Shown here piece after piece: positions 1,365-18,412 of a DNA stretch of 64,000 nucleotides (position 1 is the first letter of the stretch; the number at the start of each line of letters is the position of its first letter). The translations under genes and the position numbers were made by a program. Origin of the DNA: an uncultured archaeon (lineage in GTDB: Archaea > Asgardarchaeota > Lokiarchaeia > Sigyniarchaeales > SOKP01); contig CAZALK010000008.1 of assembly GCA_964486045.1 (NCBI GenBank), forward strand, positions 139,611-203,610, read 5' to 3'. A model generated the notes under the pieces. It saw nothing but the letters and a program-made list of their open reading frames with translations, had not been told where the DNA came from and did not search any database.

Positions 1365-1922
1365 CTAAATAGCTACAAACTCAATCGTTAGTTGATTAAA
1401 CAAATCGTCAGCACGAACAAAAAAGTTATTATCTCCTAATAAAGACTCTCCGTTAATTTCTATATAATTTGTACCATTACTATATACAAACGCAAATGAA
1501 TCAACAGAATGGTATTGGGAATTCATTGCTAATGATGTCTCATAATAATCTAAAAAAAATTCGGTAATACCATCTTTTAATAATTTTATCGTATAAATAC
1601 TAGCAGGATTGATATCCATCAATACCATAGAGAGGTGGATTCGATACCAACCAGGTTTTAATAAAGTAATACGAGTATTAGTGTTTGAAACAGAGATAAA
1701 GTTAGGATTACTCAAGCTATTGTCTCCAAATTCTATAAGCCAATTATCTAGCGCATTATGAGGGGGATAACCTTGATTGTCCGCAAGCGAATCCCATACT
1801 CCCACAACGATAGTCATATTATTAGTGGTATTTTGACCGTTCCACACTACAAATGTAAATCCTATTGCTCCAGCGGCTAAGATTATCCCTATAACCCCTA
1901 AAACTGCTCCACCACGTCCCAT
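1365..1922 (-). CDS. Membrane-anchored surface protein, possible C1q/TNF-like jelly-roll domain
   Basis: N-terminal hydrophobic helix, then a beta-rich domain with ITLLKPGWYRIHL, LLKDG and NGTNYIEI spacing reminiscent of C1q/BclA-C domains. The fold call is tentative. Confidence 0.6.
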   Translation of the reverse strand: MGRGGAVLGVIGIILAAGAIGFTFVVWNGQNTTNNMTIVVGVWDSLADNQGYPPHNALDNWLIEFGDNSLSNPNFISVSNTNTRITLLKPGWYRIHLSMVLMDINPASIYTIKLLKDGITEFFLDYYETSLAMNSQYHSVDSFAFVYSNGTNYIEINGESLLGDNNFFVRADDLFNQLTIEFVAI

Positions 1923-2230: not shown

Positions 2231-2536
2231 TCACGAAAGATTTTGAAAAGAAATTAAATCCATCTGAATTGATCTATGGTTAATATTTGAGACTAGGTCT
2301 TCAAGATCAGGGAACTCAAAAGGGAAGATGTTTTCAAAAGCTCTTTTTAACAATTCAACGTACTTCTTCTTGTCATATTTGTGCTTTTTATCATCAAATA
2401 AGTCTGAAAGGATAACCTTTTTTTCAGGAAAACTTGGATCCGCATCGGCATTAAGAATAATATATCTTACGTTTTTACCTGCTGATGCAATAACACCAGA
2501 GCGTTCTAACTGTCTTGCGGCAACTGCCTGGTAACT
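2231..2536 (-). pseudogene. Isolated 3' fragment (101 codons plus stop) of a PolB2 gene
   Basis: Reverse translation SYQAVAARQLERSGVIASAGKNVRYIILNADADPSFPEKKVILSDLFD...QMDLISFQNLS* matches the 13294-15717 C-terminus (83 of the first 98 aa identical by hand count). No start codon, and similarity ends abruptly at 2536. Confidence 0.93.
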
Positions 2537-3101: not shown

Positions 3102-5159
3102 CTATTTTATTGAAGCCATGAATTTCAAAATAGTATCCATAATAGGAAGAGAGTTACAAATTATTCCAATTCTTTTAGCCCGAAAATCAAAGGCTTTCCT
3201 TCCAATAGGTGCGAGGTATGGATAATTGGAGATAATTATTACTTCATCTCCAGCCAGTATTGCATTAAATTTAACATTTTTACTCAATTCAAGGAAATTA
3301 CAATTTTCACATTCTTTTGTTATCATTTCTAATTTTCTTATCCCCTCTTCCCATTGAATTGAGCTTTTTATAAGTTCCGTCTTATTTAATAATATAGAGA
3401 AAGAAGGGATCTCTTCTAGGTGTGATTGAAATATTGGACCAATTCTTTTCTGACTTAGCTTTTCAGTAATTAATTGGAATGGCGCTTGTATCTCTCTCAT
3501 AGCATCTATTAGTATATCTTCATGTTCATAATCATATAATAATGATATACATTCTATATTCACCAAAGTGTTAATTTTTTCTTTGATTTCATATAGTAAA
3601 CCATTTGTACTCTCTATATTCTCGTTTAATATAAAAAATTCAAGGTCCTCAATTTTTTTTTCAAAAAAATTGATAATATTAATTCTGTAATCGGACAAAT
3701 TATTACAATAGACTTGAGTGGATTTTGCTAAGTATTTGTTTAAAACTTTTTTTCTATCAAATGAATCAGGTAAAAAATCGATAACAAATTGCAAAAGGCT
3801 TAAAGGTGTCTTTCCGCCCTCTAAATAAATGTTTGGAGTAATTAAACCCTCCTCGTTGTAATTATAACCAAGGAATGATAAACAATTGTAAAAGACTTTG
3901 TTGTTATCAATGATTAAAAAATTTGCATCAATCATATTATCCGATATAGTAAAAAATACTCTATTTTTATCTTTTCTTTCTAGTCCAGAAGATACTCCCA
4001 GTCTAAACTCCTTGATCTTTTCACGCTGTTCGCTAGGTGAGATCTCTTCTACACCCCCCCAAATAAACGTAATAGGTACTTCATTTTGACTAGATTCATA
4101 TATAATACTCTGAAGAAATGATAAATTGTTTAAGTTTAAATTATCAGAACAGATAACAATAAAATCTTGTGCATTTTTAACGTGTTCAATAATAAGATTT
4201 TTTACTTCTAAATTTTGATATTTAAATACTATTTTATTTACACTTTCAATTCGTTCTTTTAAAATTTTAAAATCTTTTTTTATTCTATCAAACCTATCCT
4301 CTAACAATATTTGAAGGCTCAAATTCTCTTCAAGATTATTAAAAGAGTTAATTTCTTCCTGTAAAAAGTTAAGGTTGAATAGAATTTGGGTTATAAATTT
4401 TTTATTTGACAAAATAATCGGTGTTTCAAGAGTTAAATCTTCTTCTATTTCTTCTGATTCCATAAGTTTTGATTCAAAAGCTTTCTGCCAATATTTTTGG
4501 ACGACTCTGGGGAATATATCAAAATCCAGATTAAATAAAATACCTTCTTCCTTTTTAATTGGAATATATAATTTATCTCGATGTAAGGGATATAAGAAAT
4601 TAATTTTTTCGACATTTTCTAAATCTCTAACTCTTGATTTAACACATTGAGTATATTTTAGTAAAGAATAACTATATATATGTTGAAATGTCTCTGAAGG
4701 TGAAGATTTTAAATCAATGAAATTCGTTTTATCAGGATTAGGTGTCTTTAAATAATCATTAACATCATTTTGAATAAAGAGTTCCCCCCCAATTTTTTCT
4801 TGAAGAATTATTACGGGATATTTATAGACAGTAGTATCAACATCCAAAAATTCATCTAGTTTATCTTTTTCAACATATTCAATAATCTTTTCGCTAAGTG
4901 TTACTAATCCACTATTTAAATCAATATGGATTAATCCTGAATATATTAATGGTGTTAATATATAATTCATAATATGTTTTCCAACATTAAAGGCTTTAAC
5001 TATGTTTATTAGTGAATTATCTTTACTTATTAATTTTAAAACTAATTTCTCAAGATGAGAAAGCATCTTACTTTTACGAATCACAATTTCACATTTTTCC
5101 ATTTGAATTGGAACAGTAATAACATCATCTTTTTTAACCTCCAGATTTTCCTCAGACAT
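3102..5159 (-). CDS. wHTH plus tandem degenerate PLD-like domain protein (MkoB-like)
   Basis: N-terminal winged-helix-like segment. PLD-fold pattern (AQDFIVICS...ITFIWG...IDANFLIIDNN and KFNAILAGDEVIIISNYPYL) with HxKxxxxD degenerate. Lies 1 nt downstream of the kinase-helicase gene. Confidence 0.65.
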   Translation of the reverse strand: MSEENLEVKKDDVITVPIQMEKCEIVIRKSKMLSHLEKLVLKLISKDNSLINIVKAFNVGKHIMNYILTPLIYSGLIHIDLNSGLVTLSEKIIEYVEKDKLDEFLDVDTTVYKYPVIILQEKIGGELFIQNDVNDYLKTPNPDKTNFIDLKSSPSETFQHIYSYSLLKYTQCVKSRVRDLENVEKINFLYPLHRDKLYIPIKKEEGILFNLDFDIFPRVVQKYWQKAFESKLMESEEIEEDLTLETPIILSNKKFITQILFNLNFLQEEINSFNNLEENLSLQILLEDRFDRIKKDFKILKERIESVNKIVFKYQNLEVKNLIIEHVKNAQDFIVICSDNLNLNNLSFLQSIIYESSQNEVPITFIWGGVEEISPSEQREKIKEFRLGVSSGLERKDKNRVFFTISDNMIDANFLIIDNNKVFYNCLSFLGYNYNEEGLITPNIYLEGGKTPLSLLQFVIDFLPDSFDRKKVLNKYLAKSTQVYCNNLSDYRINIINFFEKKIEDLEFFILNENIESTNGLLYEIKEKINTLVNIECISLLYDYEHEDILIDAMREIQAPFQLITEKLSQKRIGPIFQSHLEEIPSFSILLNKTELIKSSIQWEEGIRKLEMITKECENCNFLELSKNVKFNAILAGDEVIIISNYPYLAPIGRKAFDFRAKRIGIICNSLPIMDTILKFMASIK

Positions 5160-5160
5160 T

Positions 5161-8100
5161 TTAATATGGAACCTCGTCGTGTGAGATTATTTTTCCTTCT
5201 TTTTGAAAAAAGACTGCCACCTTACTAAATTTTTCCATAATTGGATTTCTACGATGATTTAAACACATTTTTAAATCACCTACAATTATTTCTACTTTTC
5301 TCGCTCTTGAGAGCATTACATTTAGTCTTTGAGGATCAGGAATAAAACCCCAAGCTGATCTGATTCCTTCTTTATTGTTACTTCGAACAAGTGATATAAT
5401 CACTAAATCTGCCTCTTGACCCTGAAAACTATCAACAGTATAACAAGAATTTTTAATATTTATCCCCCCCAAGTTTGGAAGGTTGTTTGGTAAGTGAGTC
5501 TTTAAAACATTTACTTGCTCATTATAAGGGCTTAAAATAGCCAAGGAGAATTGGATATACTTCTTATTAACTCTAATTTTTTTTAATATTCTATTAATTA
5601 ATTTAACTTCAGAAATGTTGTAAAAATCTGTACCAGCCCGTTTTTCTCCATAGATTCTTTCATTTTTTGTATTGATCCAAATTAATTGTTCATTTGACAT
5701 CATAGTTGGTTCTAAAATTAAATCATCTATTTCATGAATTTCTTGTCTAAAAGCTCTGTCATAGAAAATTGTTGAAATCATTTTACTAATTTTTGAAGGA
5801 AGTCTATGTTGGCCTATGAGTGTATTACAAGATCTCCTTTCATCAGCAGAATCATATGAAGGGCTTATTTTTTTAAATCGTTCGAACATAGATTGGAAGA
5901 TTTTTACTTCTCTAATTGTTAACTTTCTAAATTCTAAGAAATCTCTTTCATTAAAGGTTATTTCTTCTTTAGATTCCTCTTCTATTTCATCTAATTCTTC
6001 ATTGATTAGTTCAATAATATCATTTAGTTTAAATGGAGGGAGTTGGTTTTGATCTCCAATTAGGACCCACTTATTCCCTAGCTGCAAAGGTCGGAATAAT
6101 TCAGAAGGATATGTTTTAGCAGCCTCCTCGATTATTACTAAATCAAAATTAGGTCTTGATTCCAGTTTACTCAAATCATTAGACGTACTAGTACAGAAAA
6201 CTAAGTTTGAACTCTCTCTAATACTATCTGTCCATTCACGACTTGGTGCTTTACCTTCGTATTTTATTATGTTTTCAATTTCGGCTAAAATGTCATCATA
6301 TTTTTTAAGATTAGGATTCCATTTTTCAATATTCTCTAACATTTTAATAGCCATTTGTTTAGGAAAATGCTTAAAGGCTATTGATCCTGGCGGATAATTA
6401 CGTTCTCTAAATGGATTAATTAGTCGAACAATTTTAGGTTTTGGATTAATGTTTAATTCCTTGCACATGTCATAAGTCTTCTCTAGAAGGTCATCTAAAG
6501 CCGCATGCTCTTTACTTGAGACTAGAATCCTTTTATAAGGGTCTCTTTCAAGAGTTAATCTAATTAATTCCTTTGCAGACCATGTTTTTCCCGTTCCTGG
6601 AGGTCCTTGAAGAAGGAATATTGGAAAAGTGTAGAAAATAAAATTTACGATATCACTCTTATTGTCTTTCAAAAAATATTGATGTATCGCAGCTGGATTT
6701 AAAATCGCATCAATTAAATAATCTTTATCTTCTAAATTTTGAATAGTCATAAATTTCCTTTTTAATAGATGCAATGTTGGTTTTAAATCCCAAAAACGCA
6801 AATAACCATTTAAAGAAGGACTATCATTTTTTCTAACTTCTTCCCATTTTACAACAATATTGAAATCATCAGGTTCATCAATAATTTCAATAAATTTCCA
6901 TTTTCTTCGTTCTTTAAACCTTTGTTTTAAATCTGGTGAATCTGTTAGTTCTACAGTTTGAGTTTGAGAATTTCTTAAGACTTGTATGAACCGGGTCCTT
7001 TCAGCTTTGTTAAAAATGTTTATACTAATTTGTCGTTTACTTTTTTTTGGACTCTCTTTATCGAATGAATCGTTTATAAGTTCATATTCGAATATGTATC
7101 TTTTTTCAATATTTTGCTCTACTTTAGTAATAAGTTTTAATGCTTCTAACCATCTTTTCTTATCTAGTTCATAATCTGATGGTTCTTCATCAATAGTTCT
7201 TATTTGTGTTAAAGCATTTGCAAATATCCGATCCCAAGTAGAATATGATTTTTCTTTAAGATCTTGCCAATATAACTCATTTACTTTACAGACACAAATA
7301 TCATTTTTCAATCCAAAACTTCTCTCTTCATTTTTATTTAATAAACTTACTATTGCAATTTTTCTATTATTACGACCCCTCTGAAATTTATACTTTCCAT
7401 TTTTACCAATTGCCCATAAGGGCCAATCTCTATTATTCGTTAAATAAAAAGATAATTCTGAAAATTCATTTTTTAAAAAAGCATCTGGATATTCTCGAAT
7501 ACCTTGAATATTTACATCAACCTTCCGAGCAATCCAGTTGAGAAAATGACTATCTCGGTCTATATTGAAGTATATTGGTAATTTAGGTGTTGTAATTGTG
7601 AGATATTTAAGTTCGTTCACAAAATCTCTAATCTTTTCTACAAATTCATCAATGCTTTCAAATCTGTCTTCGTGATTCAATTCGGTTGCTTTTAAAATTA
7701 TTTCTTTTTCTTGTTGTAATCCCTCTTGAAAATGTATATTATCACGGATTTCATTGTATAATCTAGCTCTATCTGAAAACTCAGTGTCTTCATATTCAAT
7801 CATATCTAAATCAAAAATTAGAAAAGCCATTACTAATCCTAAAGAAAAAATGTCTGATTTAAAAGTCTCCATCTCTAAGCACTCAGGTGCTCTAAAAAAA
7901 TGCAAGTTATTTTGAATAATATTTTTTGTAATCTCATCAGAGATTAGATTAGATATTGAATATAAATAAATACTCCAGTTAAAATCACCTAATCTAAAGA
8001 TATGATCTTCACCTTCTCGATAAGCTTCCCTGTTAAAATAAACCGTATCAAGAGAGATGTTTCTATGTAGGAGTCCTGCGTTATGAATCGCAAGTAATCC

Positions 8101-8550
8101 CTCTGATAATTTTAAAATTCCTTCCCAAATTTTTTTTTTTGAAAGATTTGAATTCTTTAATTGATCAAATAGTTCGATATCTTCATTCTCCTTTTTAGAT
8201 AAGAGAATCTCCCTTAAACTTGAACCTCCTGCCTCAGTTATTAAAATAAAACAATTCTCCTCCTTATCGTACTCACCATCAATTAATTTTAGTAATGTAT
8301 TTCCTCTAGAAATATTAATTGCTCTTTGATTTAAAGAAATTTCATAATGCCATAGATATTGAGCTAACTCTTGAATACGAGGGTCCTCTTTAACGTTAAT
8401 TTTTTTTAATATAACTCTCTGTTGTAGACCACGATCTTCGGCGATATATTGATTTATTTCAATCTTATCACTAAAAGGGATCGCAATATTGCCTGTAATT
8501 TCTTCAATAATTCTATATCTTGTTTTCCATGAATCATAAATTGAGGTCAT
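5161..8550 (-). CDS. Ser/Thr kinase-like domain fused to SF1 (Upf1/Dna2/NAM7-like) helicase (MkoA-like)
   Basis: Kinase motifs: VILKK, LLHRNIS, LGDFNWS, RAPE, KSDIFSLG. Helicase motifs: LQGPPGTGKT, IIEEAAK, LIGDQNQLPP, ILSPYNEQV, TVDSFQGQEAD, RLNVMLSRAR. Confidence 0.9.
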   Translation of the reverse strand: MTSIYDSWKTRYRIIEEITGNIAIPFSDKIEINQYIAEDRGLQQRVILKKINVKEDPRIQELAQYLWHYEISLNQRAINISRGNTLLKLIDGEYDKEENCFILITEAGGSSLREILLSKKENEDIELFDQLKNSNLSKKKIWEGILKLSEGLLAIHNAGLLHRNISLDTVYFNREAYREGEDHIFRLGDFNWSIYLYSISNLISDEITKNIIQNNLHFFRAPECLEMETFKSDIFSLGLVMAFLIFDLDMIEYEDTEFSDRARLYNEIRDNIHFQEGLQQEKEIILKATELNHEDRFESIDEFVEKIRDFVNELKYLTITTPKLPIYFNIDRDSHFLNWIARKVDVNIQGIREYPDAFLKNEFSELSFYLTNNRDWPLWAIGKNGKYKFQRGRNNRKIAIVSLLNKNEERSFGLKNDICVCKVNELYWQDLKEKSYSTWDRIFANALTQIRTIDEEPSDYELDKKRWLEALKLITKVEQNIEKRYIFEYELINDSFDKESPKKSKRQISINIFNKAERTRFIQVLRNSQTQTVELTDSPDLKQRFKERRKWKFIEIIDEPDDFNIVVKWEEVRKNDSPSLNGYLRFWDLKPTLHLLKRKFMTIQNLEDKDYLIDAILNPAAIHQYFLKDNKSDIVNFIFYTFPIFLLQGPPGTGKTWSAKELIRLTLERDPYKRILVSSKEHAALDDLLEKTYDMCKELNINPKPKIVRLINPFRERNYPPGSIAFKHFPKQMAIKMLENIEKWNPNLKKYDDILAEIENIIKYEGKAPSREWTDSIRESSNLVFCTSTSNDLSKLESRPNFDLVIIEEAAKTYPSELFRPLQLGNKWVLIGDQNQLPPFKLNDIIELINEELDEIEEESKEEITFNERDFLEFRKLTIREVKIFQSMFERFKKISPSYDSADERRSCNTLIGQHRLPSKISKMISTIFYDRAFRQEIHEIDDLILEPTMMSNEQLIWINTKNERIYGEKRAGTDFYNISEVKLINRILKKIRVNKKYIQFSLAILSPYNEQVNVLKTHLPNNLPNLGGINIKNSCYTVDSFQGQEADLVIISLVRSNNKEGIRSAWGFIPDPQRLNVMLSRARKVEIIVGDLKMCLNHRRNPIMEKFSKVAVFFQKEGKIISHDEVPY

Positions 8551-8841: not shown

Positions 8842-11721
8842 TTGACATTGATTAACGATTTATTAAAATTCTTCTATACTGAACCAAGCGATTTAGACTA
8901 TTCTCCTGGTAATGAGATGACGACAGCATTTATTTATGACGAAATTCGAGAAATTGGAGATAACATTTTTACATCTAATATAGATCCTAAATTTTATAAA
9001 GAGACCGCTGAAATATTCTTAAAAGACATTGATACTCTATTACAAGATACTCCGGATGGGAAAAGATTAGTATGGGAAGAATCATTAGTGGCACATCTAC
9101 CCGCTTTGGACGAGAATGGTGATCAAATTATTTTAAGACCTTCAATGCTACCTTCTAAAGATACCGGCTTCTTTATCTGGGATGAAGGAAAAAAGAAATC
9201 CTCTGACGAATTAACAGATCAATGGGGAAACGAAGGCGGATGGGGTTATTTTCAGGGAAAAGGCTCCCCATTTATTTTTGTTCACGATGACGATGGCAAT
9301 AATGGAATTATGCCCGTAAGTTTAATGGGTGATACCATGCCTGAAGGAATAAATCTAGGATATAAGAGTTCAGGTACAGGAGATGTGATAAAAGGAGTGT
9401 ATCTAAGCGACGAAGGAGGAGGACTTTTACTATCACAAATTGGGCTCATATCTGAAACGTTCTATGCTAAGGGTAAGGAATGGTTCAAAGATCCATTAGC
9501 CATCCCAAATCACATTAACCCGAATTATGAAATAGAAATAAATGGTAAGGTTGTCATGGTTCCTAGACTAATTTATTACAGATCTTCTACGAGACAGACT
9601 GGTAACCATATCCATGGATTCCTTCAGAAGGTAGTATCCACTATGGTACCTCGGAACACGTACAAACCGCTCATAAAGGCTGAAGTTTCTCTAACAAGTA
9701 GACTGAAAAGCATCTTAAAAAGTAGCGAGTTTTCTTATCGGTTTGAATTCGATAGGGATTTCTCATCTAAGCAATTATTCGAAATACTTAGTTTACTTCC
9801 TACTGTTGCTCAGAAAGGCTCTTCAGGTGCGATTGATTCAACTGCTTTAAATTTACTTAAATATTTTAATGGTCGATTTATAGGTAAAAAAACATTGACG
9901 AATTTTATTCCAGGTCCAGACAAAATTGAAATTAATGACATGATTAGGGCGTTAGAATTCACTGCCTTAGAATTAAAGCGATTAGCATGGAAAAATAGTG
10001 ATAATACTTTCATCGGGGCAAATCAATATCTTAAAGAATGGTTAATGTTAATCTATAATAAGATTATGACATACGATAAAACTCAACCCAATGCTGACAC
10101 TAGCATAATACGAGAGCAAGAAAAACTAACAGACCTCAGAGATAACCATGCCACAACTTATTCTGAACTAGTTACCTCAATTGAGCCAGAAAAATGTACT
10201 CCAAAGGAGTGGAATATGGCCATTAGTATTTTTGAGTCAGCATCAAAGTTATTTGGTCATGGGACAGTCAGATTAATGCTTTCAAATATGGTGAATTTCA
10301 ATAAAGATAAGAGCATAAAAATATATAATACTCCTCCAAAAGGTGAACTCGCAGCAATTCATAATCATATAGGTTTTGCTTCTATGGGCAATTTGCCAAT
10401 TTCTGATTATACAACCATCGGTAACTTTTACGAACATATGGTTGGAATATTTCTTCTAGATTCTCATGTTATCATACCGAGGACTGATATTATAATTAAT
10501 TCAAAAGAAAACTCATACATATTTCCTTTCGGACCAATAACATTTAATAATCCGACCGAAATTGTCGAAGCCAATACCATAGGTTCATTTTCTTGGTCTT
10601 TAGCTAAAAAGATTTCTGGCGAATTCAAAATATATATGAATAGCAAAACGAAGATAGATAGTTTTATATCCTCACAAACAAATCTATATAACGCCTTTTC
10701 TGATTTATTAGATGAACAAATAATAGATCAGAGACTCTATAACAACTTCAACACCCCTGAAAAGACTTGGAAGGAAAGGAAAGGAATGAATATCTGGCTT
10801 TCTAGAAGAACCAAACAAGTCGCAAGGACAGAGCTCTTTTCTATTCAATCCGGTGGCTTAAGAAACAATATTGATGAATTTAGGGCATTATTTGATTATT
10901 TAACTGACATACCATTTAATGTCCTTAAGGCGGGAGCTACTACTACATTCTCTCTATCACTAACTCAGCCATTTTTAGAAAATATAGACTATTTGAGTTG
11001 GCCAAAGGACGCCATTGCCAAACTTATCGAGGATTCTTATCAACGTTTCAAAGATGAAAATATTGAAAACTTTTTTGACCAAACTAGAAAGATAATTTCA
11101 GAATTTGGAACCGACGGTAAGAAAGTGCTAATTCAACCTATATTTTCTACAAACGATCCAGATCTAGGATATCAACACCTAATATCTGCTGAAAATCTCG
11201 CTAAAAAGAGGTGGTTACCAAGAGAAAAAACGGTATTTGAAGTTGACCTTACCAAACCCGAGGAAGCACATTATGTTTTAGAACATATAGCTCATCTTAT
11301 GGCTACATTTAATATCGCTTTTGTATTTAGAGAGTGGATTGACCTAGATACTGACCCCCGTTATAAAGATATTTATTTGAGGACAGAAAAAATGAAGAAA
11401 TATTTTGAAGATAATCAAGAAGTAATTACAGCGGTTGATTTTGAGGGTTATTTACGCATTGACGAAATCTATTCAGGGTCTTCTTCTGGTGAACAAGTCT
11501 TACTTAATGGCTATACCACAAATTCAGAGGGAAAAACATTTTTTGATGCTGAAGTTTTTAAGACATACGATGAATGGGACAAAGTATGGAAACATAAAAT
11601 GGGTTTCTTTTCGATTTCATTTGGTAAATTTAATTTTAACGCATTAATGTCTGGCACTTCTGATCAAGCGAATACCCTAAGAGAGATATTAGATCCAACA
11701 GGAACAAGATTTAGAAATTAG
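8842..11721 (+). CDS. Large hypothetical protein (959 aa), no recognised domain
   Basis: Long uninterrupted ORF with TTG start (uncertain, possibly 5' truncated). Stop overlaps the stop of the convergent LRR gene. Confidence 0.8.
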   Translation: MTLINDLLKFFYTEPSDLDYSPGNEMTTAFIYDEIREIGDNIFTSNIDPKFYKETAEIFLKDIDTLLQDTPDGKRLVWEESLVAHLPALDENGDQIILRPSMLPSKDTGFFIWDEGKKKSSDELTDQWGNEGGWGYFQGKGSPFIFVHDDDGNNGIMPVSLMGDTMPEGINLGYKSSGTGDVIKGVYLSDEGGGLLLSQIGLISETFYAKGKEWFKDPLAIPNHINPNYEIEINGKVVMVPRLIYYRSSTRQTGNHIHGFLQKVVSTMVPRNTYKPLIKAEVSLTSRLKSILKSSEFSYRFEFDRDFSSKQLFEILSLLPTVAQKGSSGAIDSTALNLLKYFNGRFIGKKTLTNFIPGPDKIEINDMIRALEFTALELKRLAWKNSDNTFIGANQYLKEWLMLIYNKIMTYDKTQPNADTSIIREQEKLTDLRDNHATTYSELVTSIEPEKCTPKEWNMAISIFESASKLFGHGTVRLMLSNMVNFNKDKSIKIYNTPPKGELAAIHNHIGFASMGNLPISDYTTIGNFYEHMVGIFLLDSHVIIPRTDIIINSKENSYIFPFGPITFNNPTEIVEANTIGSFSWSLAKKISGEFKIYMNSKTKIDSFISSQTNLYNAFSDLLDEQIIDQRLYNNFNTPEKTWKERKGMNIWLSRRTKQVARTELFSIQSGGLRNNIDEFRALFDYLTDIPFNVLKAGATTTFSLSLTQPFLENIDYLSWPKDAIAKLIEDSYQRFKDENIENFFDQTRKIISEFGTDGKKVLIQPIFSTNDPDLGYQHLISAENLAKKRWLPREKTVFEVDLTKPEEAHYVLEHIAHLMATFNIAFVFREWIDLDTDPRYKDIYLRTEKMKKYFEDNQEVITAVDFEGYLRIDEIYSGSSSGEQVLLNGYTTNSEGKTFFDAEVFKTYDEWDKVWKHKMGFFSISFGKFNFNALMSGTSDQANTLREILDPTGTRFRN

Positions 11722-13293: not shown

Positions 13294-15717
13294 TTAAGTT
13301 TTTTTACGGGCGGTTTGAAATGACAGCAAATCCATTTGAGTTGATTTTTGGTTGAAGTTTGCTACTACTTCTTCAAGATCGGGAAAGCTAAATGGAAAAA
13401 TGCTCTCAAAAGCCCTTTTTAATAGTTCTGTGTACTTCTTTTTATCATACTGGTGCTTCTTTGGATCATACAAATCCGAAAGGATCACTTTTTTTTCGGG
13501 AAAACTGGGGTCTGCTTCAGCGTTAAGGATAATATACCTTACATTCTTTCCCGCAGAAGCAATTACACCCGAGCGTTCTAGCTGTCTAGCCGCTACTGCT
13601 TGGTAAGAGTTCACCTTGTATTGTGAAGGTCGTCTTGAAATCTTTTGTTTTATCGTAAGCTCATCCCCCGATACATTACCACTTGTGATTTTGTTAATAT
13701 ATTCATAGAGCTTCTTTTTTGCTTCGGGAATTTTTTTCATAAACTCTTCGACGGAAACGACTCCTTGGAATACATCAAAAAAAGCATATTGGGCATCTTT
13801 GACGATCTTTGGTATATCTCTACGTCTCACCTCAACGCCTCTGACCTTTAGTTCTCCATTAGTTTTGATACCCCAATAATGAGTGAGGGCTGGAACGTTA
13901 CGTTCGGCTCGAGAGGGCAGAAAAGCAATGACATTATAGCATCCATCCCAGCTCATCGGGACTCTAGTATGATCCGTTATTTCTTCAGCTATCTTCTTAG
14001 TTACTTTTTCAAACTCCTCGGGAGTTCTTCCTTTCGTGTCTTTCACATAGATTGAATCAACAATTCCGTGAATAATCTTGCACCCGTGACTTCCAGCGAT
14101 TTCAGCCGCACGCATTAAAAATTCTCGGGCAAATGCACACACTGTTTGGTGTGCCTCAATTTTACCAAAACGCGCATTTTTGAAGCCTAAATAACCAAAA
14201 CTTACTACAAGCACCCATTTTAAAGCGATATCTGTGAACTTGTATCGAAGATCATCGTGTGTTTTGTTATATGCTTTGCACTCTAAACGTTTTCTAAGGG
14301 GTAGACTAATCGATTTTGAGATAATTCCTTCTCTTTTGGAACAGATATGAAAACCTCCTCCTCCGGGTACTCTAATTCCCGTTCCATCATCTTTGCAACA
14401 TTTGCAGTTAATTGTTTCAGATGAAACGTTAAGATTGGCCATAATGGAAGGATACATTGATGAAAAATCGAGTTCTACAACTTGATCAAAGACTCCGATT
14501 ATTGGCTCGAATATATGGCCTCCCCGGTCATTAACGATCAGATCCATGCCATTTCTAAATCCTTCAGGACTTTTCTTGAAAGGTGGAATAAGATGACCTA
14601 GCTTGTAGGCATTATAATATTGTATCGACTGAAGCGCACCTCCAATTGTTATTCTACATAGTCTCTGCATCGCTACTCGAGAAATCCTCGCAACTTCAAT
14701 AATTCCTGGTATATTTCCTTCACTAAAGTGCAAACTCCCATAAGAAGATGTATCCATATGAAAACGACCAGTCAAATACACTTGCGTTTTAGAGCGACGC
14801 ATTATTATCCCATATGACATATAATGATCTGAGTTTCCTGAAAGGTTAAAAATACAGTTTTTTAGCGGTGTTTTATTCCGAGAAAGGTAGAGATCCTTTG
14901 ATACTCGATTCACTGATGCCCGAGCAACTAAGTATGGAAATACGAATTCGTCTCCTCCACTAGTTAATATAATATCAGGATCTAATTTCTCGATTACTTT
15001 ACTAATCATTTTAATGGTTTCTGCTTCATCAGCTTCATCGATAAGAATCGTTCTTTTTCTCTGACCGTCTGCCCTTGGCACATTATTTTCATCATTTTCA
15101 ACAATGCTCACCTCTGCGTATACCAAACAGTCGTTAAAATATGATCTCATCCCATGTTGTTCAACTTTTATATCCAGCCATACAGATTTTAACGGAGGTA
15201 ATTCATAAAATAGTTCTTCGTTGTCATCTTTTAAATCTAAGGATACCAGCTGCATTGAGTGACCATCAGCATTTTTCTTCTTTTTAGGTTTGACCTTGAA
15301 ACTGCAAAAAGACATAGGAAAGAGATCATTTACGTAGAAATACATCTGAGCGATTGGAAGATCGGTGTTATATAACGTAAACAGCCCAATCCCATCAATA
15401 GCTTTAATAGTTTTCTTAAATACTGAAGGCTTCACCACAGAGACTCCAAAGATTTTTGTCTTCTTATGGTCTTCTAGCTTCACATATTTTTCGCAGATTC
15501 GTACACCTTTAACGTCGTGATGGGATAAAAGAATAGTCTCTAGCCTCCTAAAATCGTTACCCATGTGTTTCTTTGGCACAGCAAAAAATTCGGGGCAGAA
15601 ATCATGAAATATTTTTACAATCTTTTGCTCTTTTGCAGTTTTCACCCAAAGAATGACTCCATTGCCATGAGTGGAGACATCAAAAAGCCAACCGTCAAAT
15701 TGTTCTTGAAAGCTCAA
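13294..15717 (-). CDS. polB2: Family B DNA polymerase, PolB2 subgroup
   Basis: Motif A ELDFSSMYPSIM, motif B KWVLVVSFGYLG, motif C HGIVDS (PolB2-type in place of YGDTDS), KVRGVEVRRRD, degenerate exonuclease motifs and C-terminal PIP-like QMDLLSF. TTG start overlaps the upstream TGA. Confidence 0.9.
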   Translation of the reverse strand: MSFQEQFDGWLFDVSTHGNGVILWVKTAKEQKIVKIFHDFCPEFFAVPKKHMGNDFRRLETILLSHHDVKGVRICEKYVKLEDHKKTKIFGVSVVKPSVFKKTIKAIDGIGLFTLYNTDLPIAQMYFYVNDLFPMSFCSFKVKPKKKKNADGHSMQLVSLDLKDDNEELFYELPPLKSVWLDIKVEQHGMRSYFNDCLVYAEVSIVENDENNVPRADGQRKRTILIDEADEAETIKMISKVIEKLDPDIILTSGGDEFVFPYLVARASVNRVSKDLYLSRNKTPLKNCIFNLSGNSDHYMSYGIIMRRSKTQVYLTGRFHMDTSSYGSLHFSEGNIPGIIEVARISRVAMQRLCRITIGGALQSIQYYNAYKLGHLIPPFKKSPEGFRNGMDLIVNDRGGHIFEPIIGVFDQVVELDFSSMYPSIMANLNVSSETINCKCCKDDGTGIRVPGGGGFHICSKREGIISKSISLPLRKRLECKAYNKTHDDLRYKFTDIALKWVLVVSFGYLGFKNARFGKIEAHQTVCAFAREFLMRAAEIAGSHGCKIIHGIVDSIYVKDTKGRTPEEFEKVTKKIAEEITDHTRVPMSWDGCYNVIAFLPSRAERNVPALTHYWGIKTNGELKVRGVEVRRRDIPKIVKDAQYAFFDVFQGVVSVEEFMKKIPEAKKKLYEYINKITSGNVSGDELTIKQKISRRPSQYKVNSYQAVAARQLERSGVIASAGKNVRYIILNAEADPSFPEKKVILSDLYDPKKHQYDKKKYTELLKRAFESIFPFSFPDLEEVVANFNQKSTQMDLLSFQTARKKT

Positions 15718-15992
15718 TCTTTAGTCTTTCCTTTTATCATTTCTTCTAATTTATTTACTTTCTTTTCTAGCATCTCAATTTTCTTTTCTTGTTCTACGGC
15801 AAAAGAAAGGAACAATATTTCTGATAGCATTGGACGTGCGCTCATGCTGCCAGCATCTGCATGTATTCGAGCATAATTCATTAATTTATTAAATATTTTT
15901 TGTCCTTCAGGCCTTAAAGCTCTTTTAAAGCCTTTCCAGCTTTCAATCTCATGTTCTAACGCAGGCCTGAAAGAAGGTACAGTTCTTCCCAT
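15714..15992 (-). CDS. Small helical PolB2-associated protein (PPB2 / arCOG07300-like)
   Basis: MGRTVPSFR...WKGFKRALRPE...F signature, translationally coupled to polB2. Probable start 15992 (track gives 16043). Confidence 0.8.
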   Translation of the reverse strand: MGRTVPSFRPALEHEIESWKGFKRALRPEGQKIFNKLMNYARIHADAGSMSARPMLSEILFLSFAVEQEKKIEMLEKKVNKLEEMIKGKTKD

Positions 15993-16170
15993 ATTAAAAA
16001 CCAAGTAAAATAATTCGAATAGAAATTTAAGGGGAAATGGCATCGAAATTTTTTGATTTTCTGAAGAATTTTAAAATTTAATTTTGAATCAAGAGGGTTA
16101 TAGATTTTTTTTAGTTAGCAAAAACTTTATTTAAGGGGTTAATTTACACTAGCTAAATTAGAGTTAGGTT

Positions 16171-17357: not shown

Positions 17358-18107
17358 CTAAATCCAACAATCTATCGTAGCATTTTTTAGAGGAATTTTC
17401 TTTTTTGATGTACGAGGCTTCCATTTTAATAACCGCTTTTCAGGCATGTAAGGATGCTGAAAGAGGGTGTATTCTGCATAACGTTCGTCATCATTTATCA
17501 TTACGAGCACACTCCCAAAATGAGAAAGAATTTTTCCCCCTTTTGGCCTGAAAAGAGAATGTTCATGTAAAGGTGCTGTTATAATAATGAGGGGATTTGT
17601 CTTCCAAAGGATCTTTCTAATCCCATCTAAGGTTCTTAGTAGATCTTCAAAAGTCTGTTTTTCGTAGGCCTCAAACAGAGTTGTAATTCCCGAGATCATC
17701 ACAACTTTCACATCTTCAAGTATGGAAAGTTTGTTCTCTAAAATTTCAACCATTTGCTCCCAAGTGAAAGCTCTGCTTATGAGAATATTTTTCAAAACCT
17801 TTTGGGGGGACAGGTTTTGAGTAACTGCAAATTTACTTACATTATAAGGGTTAAATCGATTATTTCCATCGACAAATGCAACTTTGATACCTTCTCCAAG
17901 TCCTCCATTACTAAACGCTTTTTGGGCAATAACGGCAGTTGTTAATAAAATATTTGTCGTTAATTTCTTGTCTCCATAAAGCAGATAGACTAAATCTCGG
18001 TGAAATCCTCCGGAAAGCAACTCATCGAGAGTTTTATCTCCGCTTGAAATGAGAGGAGAATGAATATTCCTTTTGTACACCTTGAATCCTGAATCAAACG
18101 TCATCAT
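17358..18107 (-). CDS. Inactivated RadA/RecA-like ATPase (iRadA), PolB2 partner
   Basis: ISSGDKTLDELLSGGF, degenerate Walker A (LYGDKKLTT), FVDGNNRFNPY, LKNILISRAFTWEQM. Probable start 18107 (track gives 18140). Confidence 0.85.
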   Translation of the reverse strand: MMTFDSGFKVYKRNIHSPLISSGDKTLDELLSGGFHRDLVYLLYGDKKLTTNILLTTAVIAQKAFSNGGLGEGIKVAFVDGNNRFNPYNVSKFAVTQNLSPQKVLKNILISRAFTWEQMVEILENKLSILEDVKVVMISGITTLFEAYEKQTFEDLLRTLDGIRKILWKTNPLIIITAPLHEHSLFRPKGGKILSHFGSVLVMINDDERYAEYTLFQHPYMPEKRLLKWKPRTSKKKIPLKNATIDCWI

Positions 18108-18412
18108 ATGAAGAAACAATTCTTCAAAATAAAATAACAATACACCGACAATTTTCTGAAATTTATGGGTTTTGTCTAGAGTTAAACAATATTGTTTCCT
18201 TTTTAAGGATATAATGACCTTTTAAAAGTAAGGTTGTTTCATAGAGAGAGAGAGGGGGGTGATTGAAAATAAAAATTTAAGTAATAATATAGAGAAAGCT
18301 TTGATATTATCGAAAAAATTCAGAAAGCAAGATTTTTGTATTTTTTATATCAAAAATTTTTATTTTATATCTTCAATATAAATTATTAATACTAATTTTA
18401 AGTGAATTTTTT

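What the first reader, a model, noticed from the sequence alone, without database searches (positions are those of the whole stretch)
3102..8550. Mokosh type I-like kinase-helicase plus PLD operon in a probable Asgard archaeon
Seen: a kinase/SF1-helicase fusion followed 1 nt later by a wHTH plus two-PLD-fold protein. Established: this architecture matches the bacterial anti-phage system Mokosh type I (MkoA/MkoB), whose components have been related to the eukaryotic piRNA factors MOV10L1 and PLD6. Inference: this is an Asgard antiviral system relevant to the origin of eukaryotic RNA-based immunity.
Basis: partly seen in the sequence, partly recalled or inferred. Interest (0 to 1): 0.8.

Follow-up and report, generated by a model that had tools for sequence, protein, structure and literature searches.

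The report
Asgard Mokosh with nuclease-dead partner
This Asgard archaeon carries a known two-gene antiviral system (Mokosh type I), but in its lineage the nuclease subunit has lost all of its cutting residues while staying conserved and predicted to bind the helicase, so it probably works differently from the tested E. coli version and is not a plausible ancestor of animal piRNA proteins.

Summary
Confirmed: mkoA (8550-5161, 1129 aa, kinase-fold plus UPF1-like helicase) lies 1 nt before mkoB (5159-3102, 685 aa, wHTH plus two PLD folds). PADLOC hits: MkoA 1.5e-166, MkoB 5.5e-21. The host is probably a Lokiarchaeia archaeon. Mokosh in Asgards is already published, so the basic call is not new.

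The loss marks one clade of 21 MkoB proteins (monophyletic in both trees) nested among HKD-intact relatives. The gene is under purifying selection (dN/dS 0.20-0.29), the old pocket is re-conserved (Lys to Asn in both domains), and MkoB is predicted to dock on the helicase (ipSAE 0.63, controls 0.00). The kinase is a probable pseudokinase, as in E. coli MkoA. No shared third gene was found. Only the helicase motor is recognisably active.

The piRNA link is unsupported: the pair is patchy, no closer to UPF1 than E. coli MkoA, and lacks the very site PLD6 uses. A verified HKD-less MkoB exists (SEC470), but its MkoA carries a NERD nuclease. The scan noted a similar dead-motif pair in another genome.

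The parts
5161..8550 (-). mkoA, 1129 aa: pseudokinase, small alpha/beta domain, stalk plus beta-barrel, UPF1-like SF1 helicase
   Evidence: (PDLC03920 1.5e-166, residues 33-1110)
7603..8532 (-). Kinase-fold domain (aa 7-316). K49, E70 and RAPE kept; catalytic loop HRN instead of HRD, DFN instead of DFG. Probable pseudokinase; E. coli H10407 MkoA is also degenerate (HRH, GFE)
   Evidence: dN/dS 0.10-0.14
7261..7596 (-). Unassigned alpha/beta domain (aa 319-430), basic, also present in E. coli MkoA; candidate RNA-binding or cryptic effector domain
   Evidence: no Pfam, PDB-sequence or Atlas hit
5164..6690 (-). SF1 helicase core (aa 621-1129) with intact Walker A GPPGTGKT, Walker B IIEEA (EE is family-typical), motif III GDQNQLPP, motif V DSFQG, motif VI RLNVMLSRA
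6205..6342 (-). Helical insertion after Walker A (aa 737-782): predicted docking site of the MkoB wHTH
   Evidence: same arrangement proposed for CnuH/CnuE in PMC11090510
3102..5159 (-). mkoB, 685 aa: elongated wHTH, helical bundle, two PLD-fold domains without HKD
   Evidence: (PDLC03922 5.5e-21)
4455..5129 (-). MkoB N-terminal wHTH region (aa 11-235), most conserved part; aa 34-67 form the predicted interface
3906..3929 (-). Degenerate PLD motif 1, DANFLIID (aa 411-418), aligned with HAKIIVCD of E. coli H10407 MkoB
3249..3272 (-). Degenerate PLD motif 2, KFNAILAG (aa 630-637), aligned with HAKILSWD of E. coli H10407 MkoB
2240..2536 (-). Non-coding fragment of the 3' end of a family-B DNA polymerase gene (84% aa identity to aa 704-802 of the intact gene at 13294-15717); one edge of the variable block that holds the pair

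Best explanation
A derived, still-selected Mokosh type I variant of Lokiarchaeia in which MkoB has become a non-catalytic partner. MkoA is an ATP-driven UPF1-like helicase, most likely tracking RNA or RNA/DNA hybrids (motifs shown; substrate inferred from the family). MkoB docks through its wHTH on the helical insertion of the helicase (predicted). Its paired PLD domains cannot do classical phosphohistidine cleavage (residue loss shown; inactivity follows from PLD chemistry). The remodelled pocket (N413, N632, N645, usually R/K647) most likely binds a nucleic-acid end or small phosphorylated ligand and regulates the motor (inferred). The pseudokinase is a scaffold or sensor, as across this subfamily (inferred). 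The antiviral output would come from the helicase itself (unwinding viral transcripts, displacing ribosomes or polymerases, or consuming ATP), possibly helped by a host nuclease in trans (inferred, untested).
For: Full-length MkoA/MkoB profile hits. H, K, S, N of both motifs are replaced in all 14 non-redundant clade members but nearly invariant in 23 HKD-intact relatives; 21 distinct MkoB sequences lack both motifs. One origin, nested among intact relatives, in the MkoA helicase tree (100/100) and the MkoB tree (SH-aLRT 100). The clade spans 22-65% pairwise identity, so the loss is old. dN/dS of mkoB 0.20-0.29 overall and 0.16-0.32 in the PLD domains; mkoA 0.13-0.19. N413, N632, N645 are among the 6.9% of PLD-region columns conserved at 85% or more. 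Complex score 0.63 against best control 0.00; runs share at least 73% of contacts, partner pLDDT at least 69; that mark was reached by 58 of 80 solved and 2 of 110 mismatched pairs. The pair is adjacent in 10 independent loci, and no third gene is shared among the 8 clade loci with flanks that were compared. Patchy occurrence (3 of 400 phylum genomes), variable locus and defence-type neighbours in L133 fit defence. A verified type I system already has an HKD-less MkoB.
Against: No experiment exists for this clade. PLD active-site mutation abolished defence in a tested Mokosh (the text does not say which one). The verified HKD-less system has a NERD nuclease in MkoA, which this one lacks, so no effector is identified. 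Two clade loci have a broken mkoA (frameshift near codon 140 in L130/L131, in-frame stop in L135), and L130 mkoB still shows dN/dS 0.29, so the ratio records past selection. Conserved pocket Asn residues could be structural. The window itself is not a defence island.
Confidence: 0.55

Rival explanations
1. A cryptic nuclease in MkoA is the effector: the unassigned domain at aa 319-430 is a RelE/colicin-D-like RNase, like the RTL domain placed before the helicase in CoCoNuT CnuH, which made the PLD site dispensable.
For: Position before the stalk and barrel matches RTL in CnuH (PMC11090510); well-modelled alpha/beta domain with conserved basic and aromatic residues; parallels SEC470, where MkoA carries the nuclease.
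Against: No sequence support; the domain is also present in HKD-intact MkoA; no invariant His or clear catalytic cluster. The fold was not tested alone.
Confidence: 0.17
2. MkoB is still a nuclease or phosphodiesterase with unusual chemistry in the remodelled pocket.
For: Both PLD folds and their pairing are kept; pocket positions are re-conserved; the same Lys-to-Asn pair arose separately in an Acidobacteria MkoB.
Against: No His at either nucleophile position; position 630 is fully variable (K, N, L, I, M, V, P) and position 411 is D, N or S. PLD catalysis needs the two histidines (established knowledge).
Confidence: 0.1
3. The pair is no longer a stand-alone antiviral system: it is an accessory RNA-remodelling or regulatory module, or a slowly decaying one.
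For: Two of three catalytic modules are dead; 2 of 10 loci are broken; neighbours in the window are not defence genes.
Against: Long persistence and purifying selection argue against decay; rare, patchy occurrence at changing loci argues against housekeeping.
Confidence: 0.15
4. This Asgard pair lies on or near the line leading to eukaryotic MOV10L1 and PLD6.
For: UPF1-like helicase and PLD fold are shared; the clade sits in an archaea-rich branch rather than among proteobacterial MkoA.
Against: PLD6 is an HKD nuclease with one PLD domain and this protein has lost the motif; Zucchini ranks 39th (Z 10.5) among fold matches. Similarity to UPF1 is about that of E. coli MkoA and half that of another Asgard helicase. 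Full-length mkoB was found only in the host's own class among 400 phylum genomes searched. The published MkoA tree suggests bacterial origin with eukaryotic homologs elsewhere.
Confidence: 0.03

Closest known systems
Mokosh type I of E. coli ETEC H10407 (SG202; MkoA 1215 aa, MkoB 602 aa; Millman et al., 10.1101/2022.05.11.491447)
   Same: Same two-gene order, same PADLOC subfamily, degenerate kinase fold plus UPF1-like helicase with EE Walker B, wHTH plus two PLD folds; 24% (MkoA) and 15% (MkoB) alignment identity.
   Different: E. coli MkoB keeps two HxKxxxxD motifs (H368, H554); this one keeps neither, and has an added helical bundle.
Mokosh type I of E. coli SEC470 (SG199; MkoA 1652 aa, MkoB 478 aa)
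   Same: Verified type I system whose MkoB, labelled only 'HTH' by the authors, has no HKD motif.
   Different: Different subfamily, outside this branch in the tree; its MkoA carries an N-terminal NERD nuclease domain, absent here; its MkoB is much shorter.
HKD-intact Asgard MkoAB (G008, G020, G057)
   Same: Nearest relatives in both trees; about 700-aa MkoB; HRN pseudokinase.
   Different: Both HKD motifs intact; natural positive controls.
CoCoNuT CnuH/CnuE, type III-C (PMC11090510)
   Same: UPF1-like helicase followed by elongated wHTH fused to two PLD domains; wHTH predicted to bind the helical insertion after Walker A.
   Different: No McrBC-like CnuB/CnuC genes here; CnuH has no kinase fold.
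Animal MOV10L1 and PLD6/Zucchini
   Same: Shared UPF1-like helicase and PLD folds.
   Different: PLD6 is an active single-domain HKD nuclease without wHTH; MOV10L1 has no kinase fold; no special closeness found.

Membership tests
Mokosh type I | Two adjacent genes, helicase then PLD | tested here: met
   10 loci
Mokosh type I | MkoA: UPF1-like SF1 helicase with intact ATP-binding motifs | tested here: met
Mokosh type I | MkoA: serine/threonine kinase-fold domain | tested here: met
   Fold present; HRN/DFN, degenerate as in the tested E. coli MkoA
Mokosh type I | Match to MkoA and MkoB profile HMMs | tested here: met
   PDLC03920 1.5e-166, PDLC03922 5.5e-21; PADLOC's own system rules and DefenseFinder were not run
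Mokosh type I | MkoB: PLD fold | tested here: met
Mokosh type I (H10407-like, nuclease-active form) | Intact PLD HxKxxxxD active site | tested here: not met
   not universal in type I, since verified SEC470 MkoB also lacks it
Mokosh type I (SEC470-like form) | NERD nuclease at the MkoA N-terminus | tested here: not met
   Kinase fold starts at residue 5; no NERD hit
Mokosh type I | Protects against viruses | not testable with these tools
   needs plaque assays
CoCoNuT type III-C | McrBC-like CnuB/CnuC genes in the operon | tested here: not met
   neighbours
PLD6/Zucchini | Single PLD domain with catalytic HKD | tested here: not met
MOV10/MOV10L1 orthologues | Phylogenetic grouping with MOV10-family helicases | not testable with these tools
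   no eukaryotic sequences could be brought into the tree; only bit scores against PDB chains of UPF1, IGHMBP2 and others
Asgard archaeon (Lokiarchaeia) host | Genome placed with Asgards | tested here: met
   Indirect: same-class genome G060 matches the Ca. Helarchaeota contig L009; homologs named Promethearchaeota

The most novel reading that the evidence does not exclude
A nuclease-free Mokosh: two pseudo-enzymes (pseudokinase and a paired pseudo-PLD whose pocket became a ligand or RNA-end sensor) control a UPF1-like motor that alone provides immunity. This would show that the Mokosh helicase, not the nuclease, can be the effector, and give a natural separation-of-function pair with HKD-intact sisters in the same genus.
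Probability: 0.3. Interest if true: 0.65.

Novelty: new variant of a known kind. Interest (0 to 1): 0.42.

Why it matters
I found no mechanistic study of Mokosh in the library searched, and the working model is helicase-fed PLD cleavage. A long-lived clade that keeps the complex but has lost every recognisable catalytic site except the ATPase tests that model directly, with HKD-intact relatives in the same genus as controls. It also warns that HMM-based counts of Asgard Mokosh include nuclease-dead forms, and that the kinase of this MkoA subfamily is probably a pseudokinase. It does not bear on the origin of piRNA.

Tried and rejected
Pfam and NCBIfam gave nothing useful for MkoB. A genome-contig scan with MkoB found nothing; the scan with the MkoA alignment gave three full-length relatives and many distant helicases. 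A conserved third (effector) gene was sought by all-against-all BLAST of neighbours and not found. The 959-aa divergent ORF has no family and no copy beside other mkoAB loci. 'Kinase loss is Asgard-specific' rejected: HRN/HRH/HRA occurs across bacterial members; only the Bacillus plasmid protein keeps HRD/DFG. 'Recent transfer from Proteobacteria' not supported: the clade sits in a separate, archaea-rich branch with some high-GC contigs of unknown host. Other Asgard PLD hits of 680-696 aa (L144-L150) are not MkoB and have no MkoA beside them. A search of 301 genomes of the Acidobacteria phylum found no further MkoB at 1e-20. The SEC470 record itself was not held; strain TUM1886, whose MkoB has the same length and reads the same as the 400 residues printed in the supplement, stood in.

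Full report
Observation. The first has a kinase fold (aa 5-316) and a UPF1/IGHMBP2-like helicase with stalk and barrel (aa 460-1129). The second has no Pfam hit, but its model (mean pLDDT 70) matches two-domain PLD proteins at Z about 21. PADLOC gives MkoA at 1.5e-166 over nearly the whole length and MkoB at 5.5e-21. The host is very probably Lokiarchaeia: a same-class genome carries the contig labelled Ca. Helarchaeota.

What is already known. Type I Mokosh is a kinase-helicase plus a PLD protein; mutations of the helicase ATP site or the PLD active site abolished defence (10.1101/2022.05.11.491447). Mokosh in Asgards was reported in 2024, with a bacterial origin proposed for MkoA and eukaryotic homologs elsewhere in the tree (PMC11291487). 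The PLD6/MOV10L1 structural comparison used the fused E. coli YjhR (10.1101/2022.12.12.520048).

The active sites. I located the tested H10407 system (identity confirmed against the supplement) and aligned it. Its MkoB has HAKIIVCD and HAKILSWD; the window protein has DANFLIID and KFNAILAG. The downstream Ser and Asn of both motifs are also replaced. By established PLD chemistry this cannot form the phosphohistidine intermediate. The kinase has HRN and DFN, but this is a subfamily trait: E. coli has HRH and GFE, and other bacteria HRN or HRA. All helicase motifs are intact.

A clade, not an accident. A profile search of 1.84 billion representatives found 53 hits. Twenty-one distinct MkoB proteins lack both motifs; the next relatives, including three Asgard genomes, keep both. 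The dead set is monophyletic in the MkoA helicase tree, which does not use the trait (100/100), and in the MkoB tree, nested among intact forms when rooted on more distant helicases or on proteobacterial MkoB. An Acidobacteria MkoB lost the motifs separately. The clade spans 22-65% identity. Pairwise dN/dS for mkoB is 0.20-0.29, including both PLD domains (Nei-Gojobori, three close relatives). The pocket is re-conserved rather than random: Lys to Asn at 413 and 632 (13 of 14), Ser to Asn at 645 (12 of 14), Asn to Arg/Lys at 647 (12 of 14; Pro in the window), while only 6.9% of PLD-region columns reach 85%. Hosts are named for only a few clade members (Promethearchaeota, Helarchaeota); the rest are unassigned low-GC contigs, one at 47% GC.

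Complex. The MkoB N-terminal part is predicted to bind the MkoA helical insertion after Walker A: score 0.63, best control 0.00, contact agreement at least 73%, partner pLDDT at least 69; this mark was reached by 58 of 80 solved and 2 of 110 mismatched pairs. This supports but does not show binding. The same docking was proposed for CoCoNuT CnuE on CnuH.

Context. The pair is adjacent in ten independent loci and no third gene is shared among the eight with flanks that were compared. Neighbours range from restriction-type and other defence genes to housekeeping genes. Among 400 genomes of the phylum, full-length mkoB appeared in six, all in the host's class, three dead and three intact; incomplete genomes limit this count. 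In the window the pair lies in a block of about 12 kb between a core family-B polymerase gene and an aldo-keto reductase gene that are direct neighbours in one relative and 5-6 kb apart in two others, with a diverged fragment of the polymerase 3' end at 2240-2536. This suggests insertion at a variable site. Two clade loci have a broken mkoA.

Precedent. I checked it: its MkoB is labelled only HTH and has no HKD, but its MkoA has a NERD nuclease domain and lies outside this branch. An HKD-less MkoB is thus precedented; one with no recognisable nuclease in either gene is not described in the papers I could search.

Mechanism. Shown: motifs, folds, clade, selection, gene pairing. Predicted: the complex. 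Inferred: RNA substrate, a regulatory or ligand-binding role for the pseudo-PLD and pseudokinase, helicase-based output, and the antiviral role itself. I put 0.55 on this, 0.17 on a cryptic RNase in aa 319-430, 0.15 on an accessory or decaying module, 0.10 on unusual PLD chemistry and 0.03 on piRNA ancestry.

Eukaryotic link. Against human UPF1 (2xzo) the window MkoA scores 75.6 bits, E. coli MkoA 66.3 and an unrelated Asgard IGHMBP2-like helicase 142.7. Zucchini is a middling fold match. A derived loss of the HKD site in a patchy lineage is a poor candidate ancestor for an HKD nuclease. A tree with eukaryotic sequences could not be built here.

Verdict. Real; a Mokosh type I system by architecture and profile, but not of the nuclease-active form; a new variant of a known kind.

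Noticed in passing
window 2240-2536 and 13294-15717: A diverged copy (77% nt) of the 3' end of the family-B polymerase gene bounds the block with mkoAB; similar 3' fragments appear in G025 and G019. The polymerase 3' end may be an insertion hotspot in this genus.
   Followed up: partly
window 8842-11721: 959-aa ORF divergent from mkoA, no Pfam or NCBIfam family and no PADLOC hit below E 0.05, single copy in the genome, not found beside other mkoAB loci.
   Followed up: partly
window 1365-1922: 185-aa protein with an N-terminal hydrophobic segment; at least three paralogs in the genome, one just outside the window in inverted orientation.
   Followed up: no
window 15714-16043 and 17358-18140: Small ORF and a RadA-like-looking ORF upstream of the polymerase on the same strand, resembling the archaeal PolB2 operon layout (from recall, not tested).
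   Followed up: no
L010:9387-11147: Acidobacteria MkoB with an independent Lys-to-Asn loss in both PLD motifs, followed by a gene that looks like a nucleoside-phosphorylase effector.
   Followed up: partly
L009:11527-13947: AAA_15/AAA_21 ATPase with a nitrilase-like-looking tail directly after the dead mkoB in the Helarchaeota genome; not shared by other loci.
   Followed up: partly
L132:3524-6446: Zc3h12a-type RNase and PD-(D/E)xK-HerA genes directly upstream of the dead mkoAB in the same direction; possible local nuclease partners.
   Followed up: no
L089:4953-9887: Bacillus thuringiensis plasmid pair has the reverse pattern: canonical kinase (HRD, DFG) and an MkoB-like partner without HKD.
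   Followed up: partly
L012 and L013: Kinase-less helicases of a Promethearchaeota genome and a Patescibacteria bin are close sisters in the tree (branches about 0.07): transfer or misbinning.
   Followed up: no
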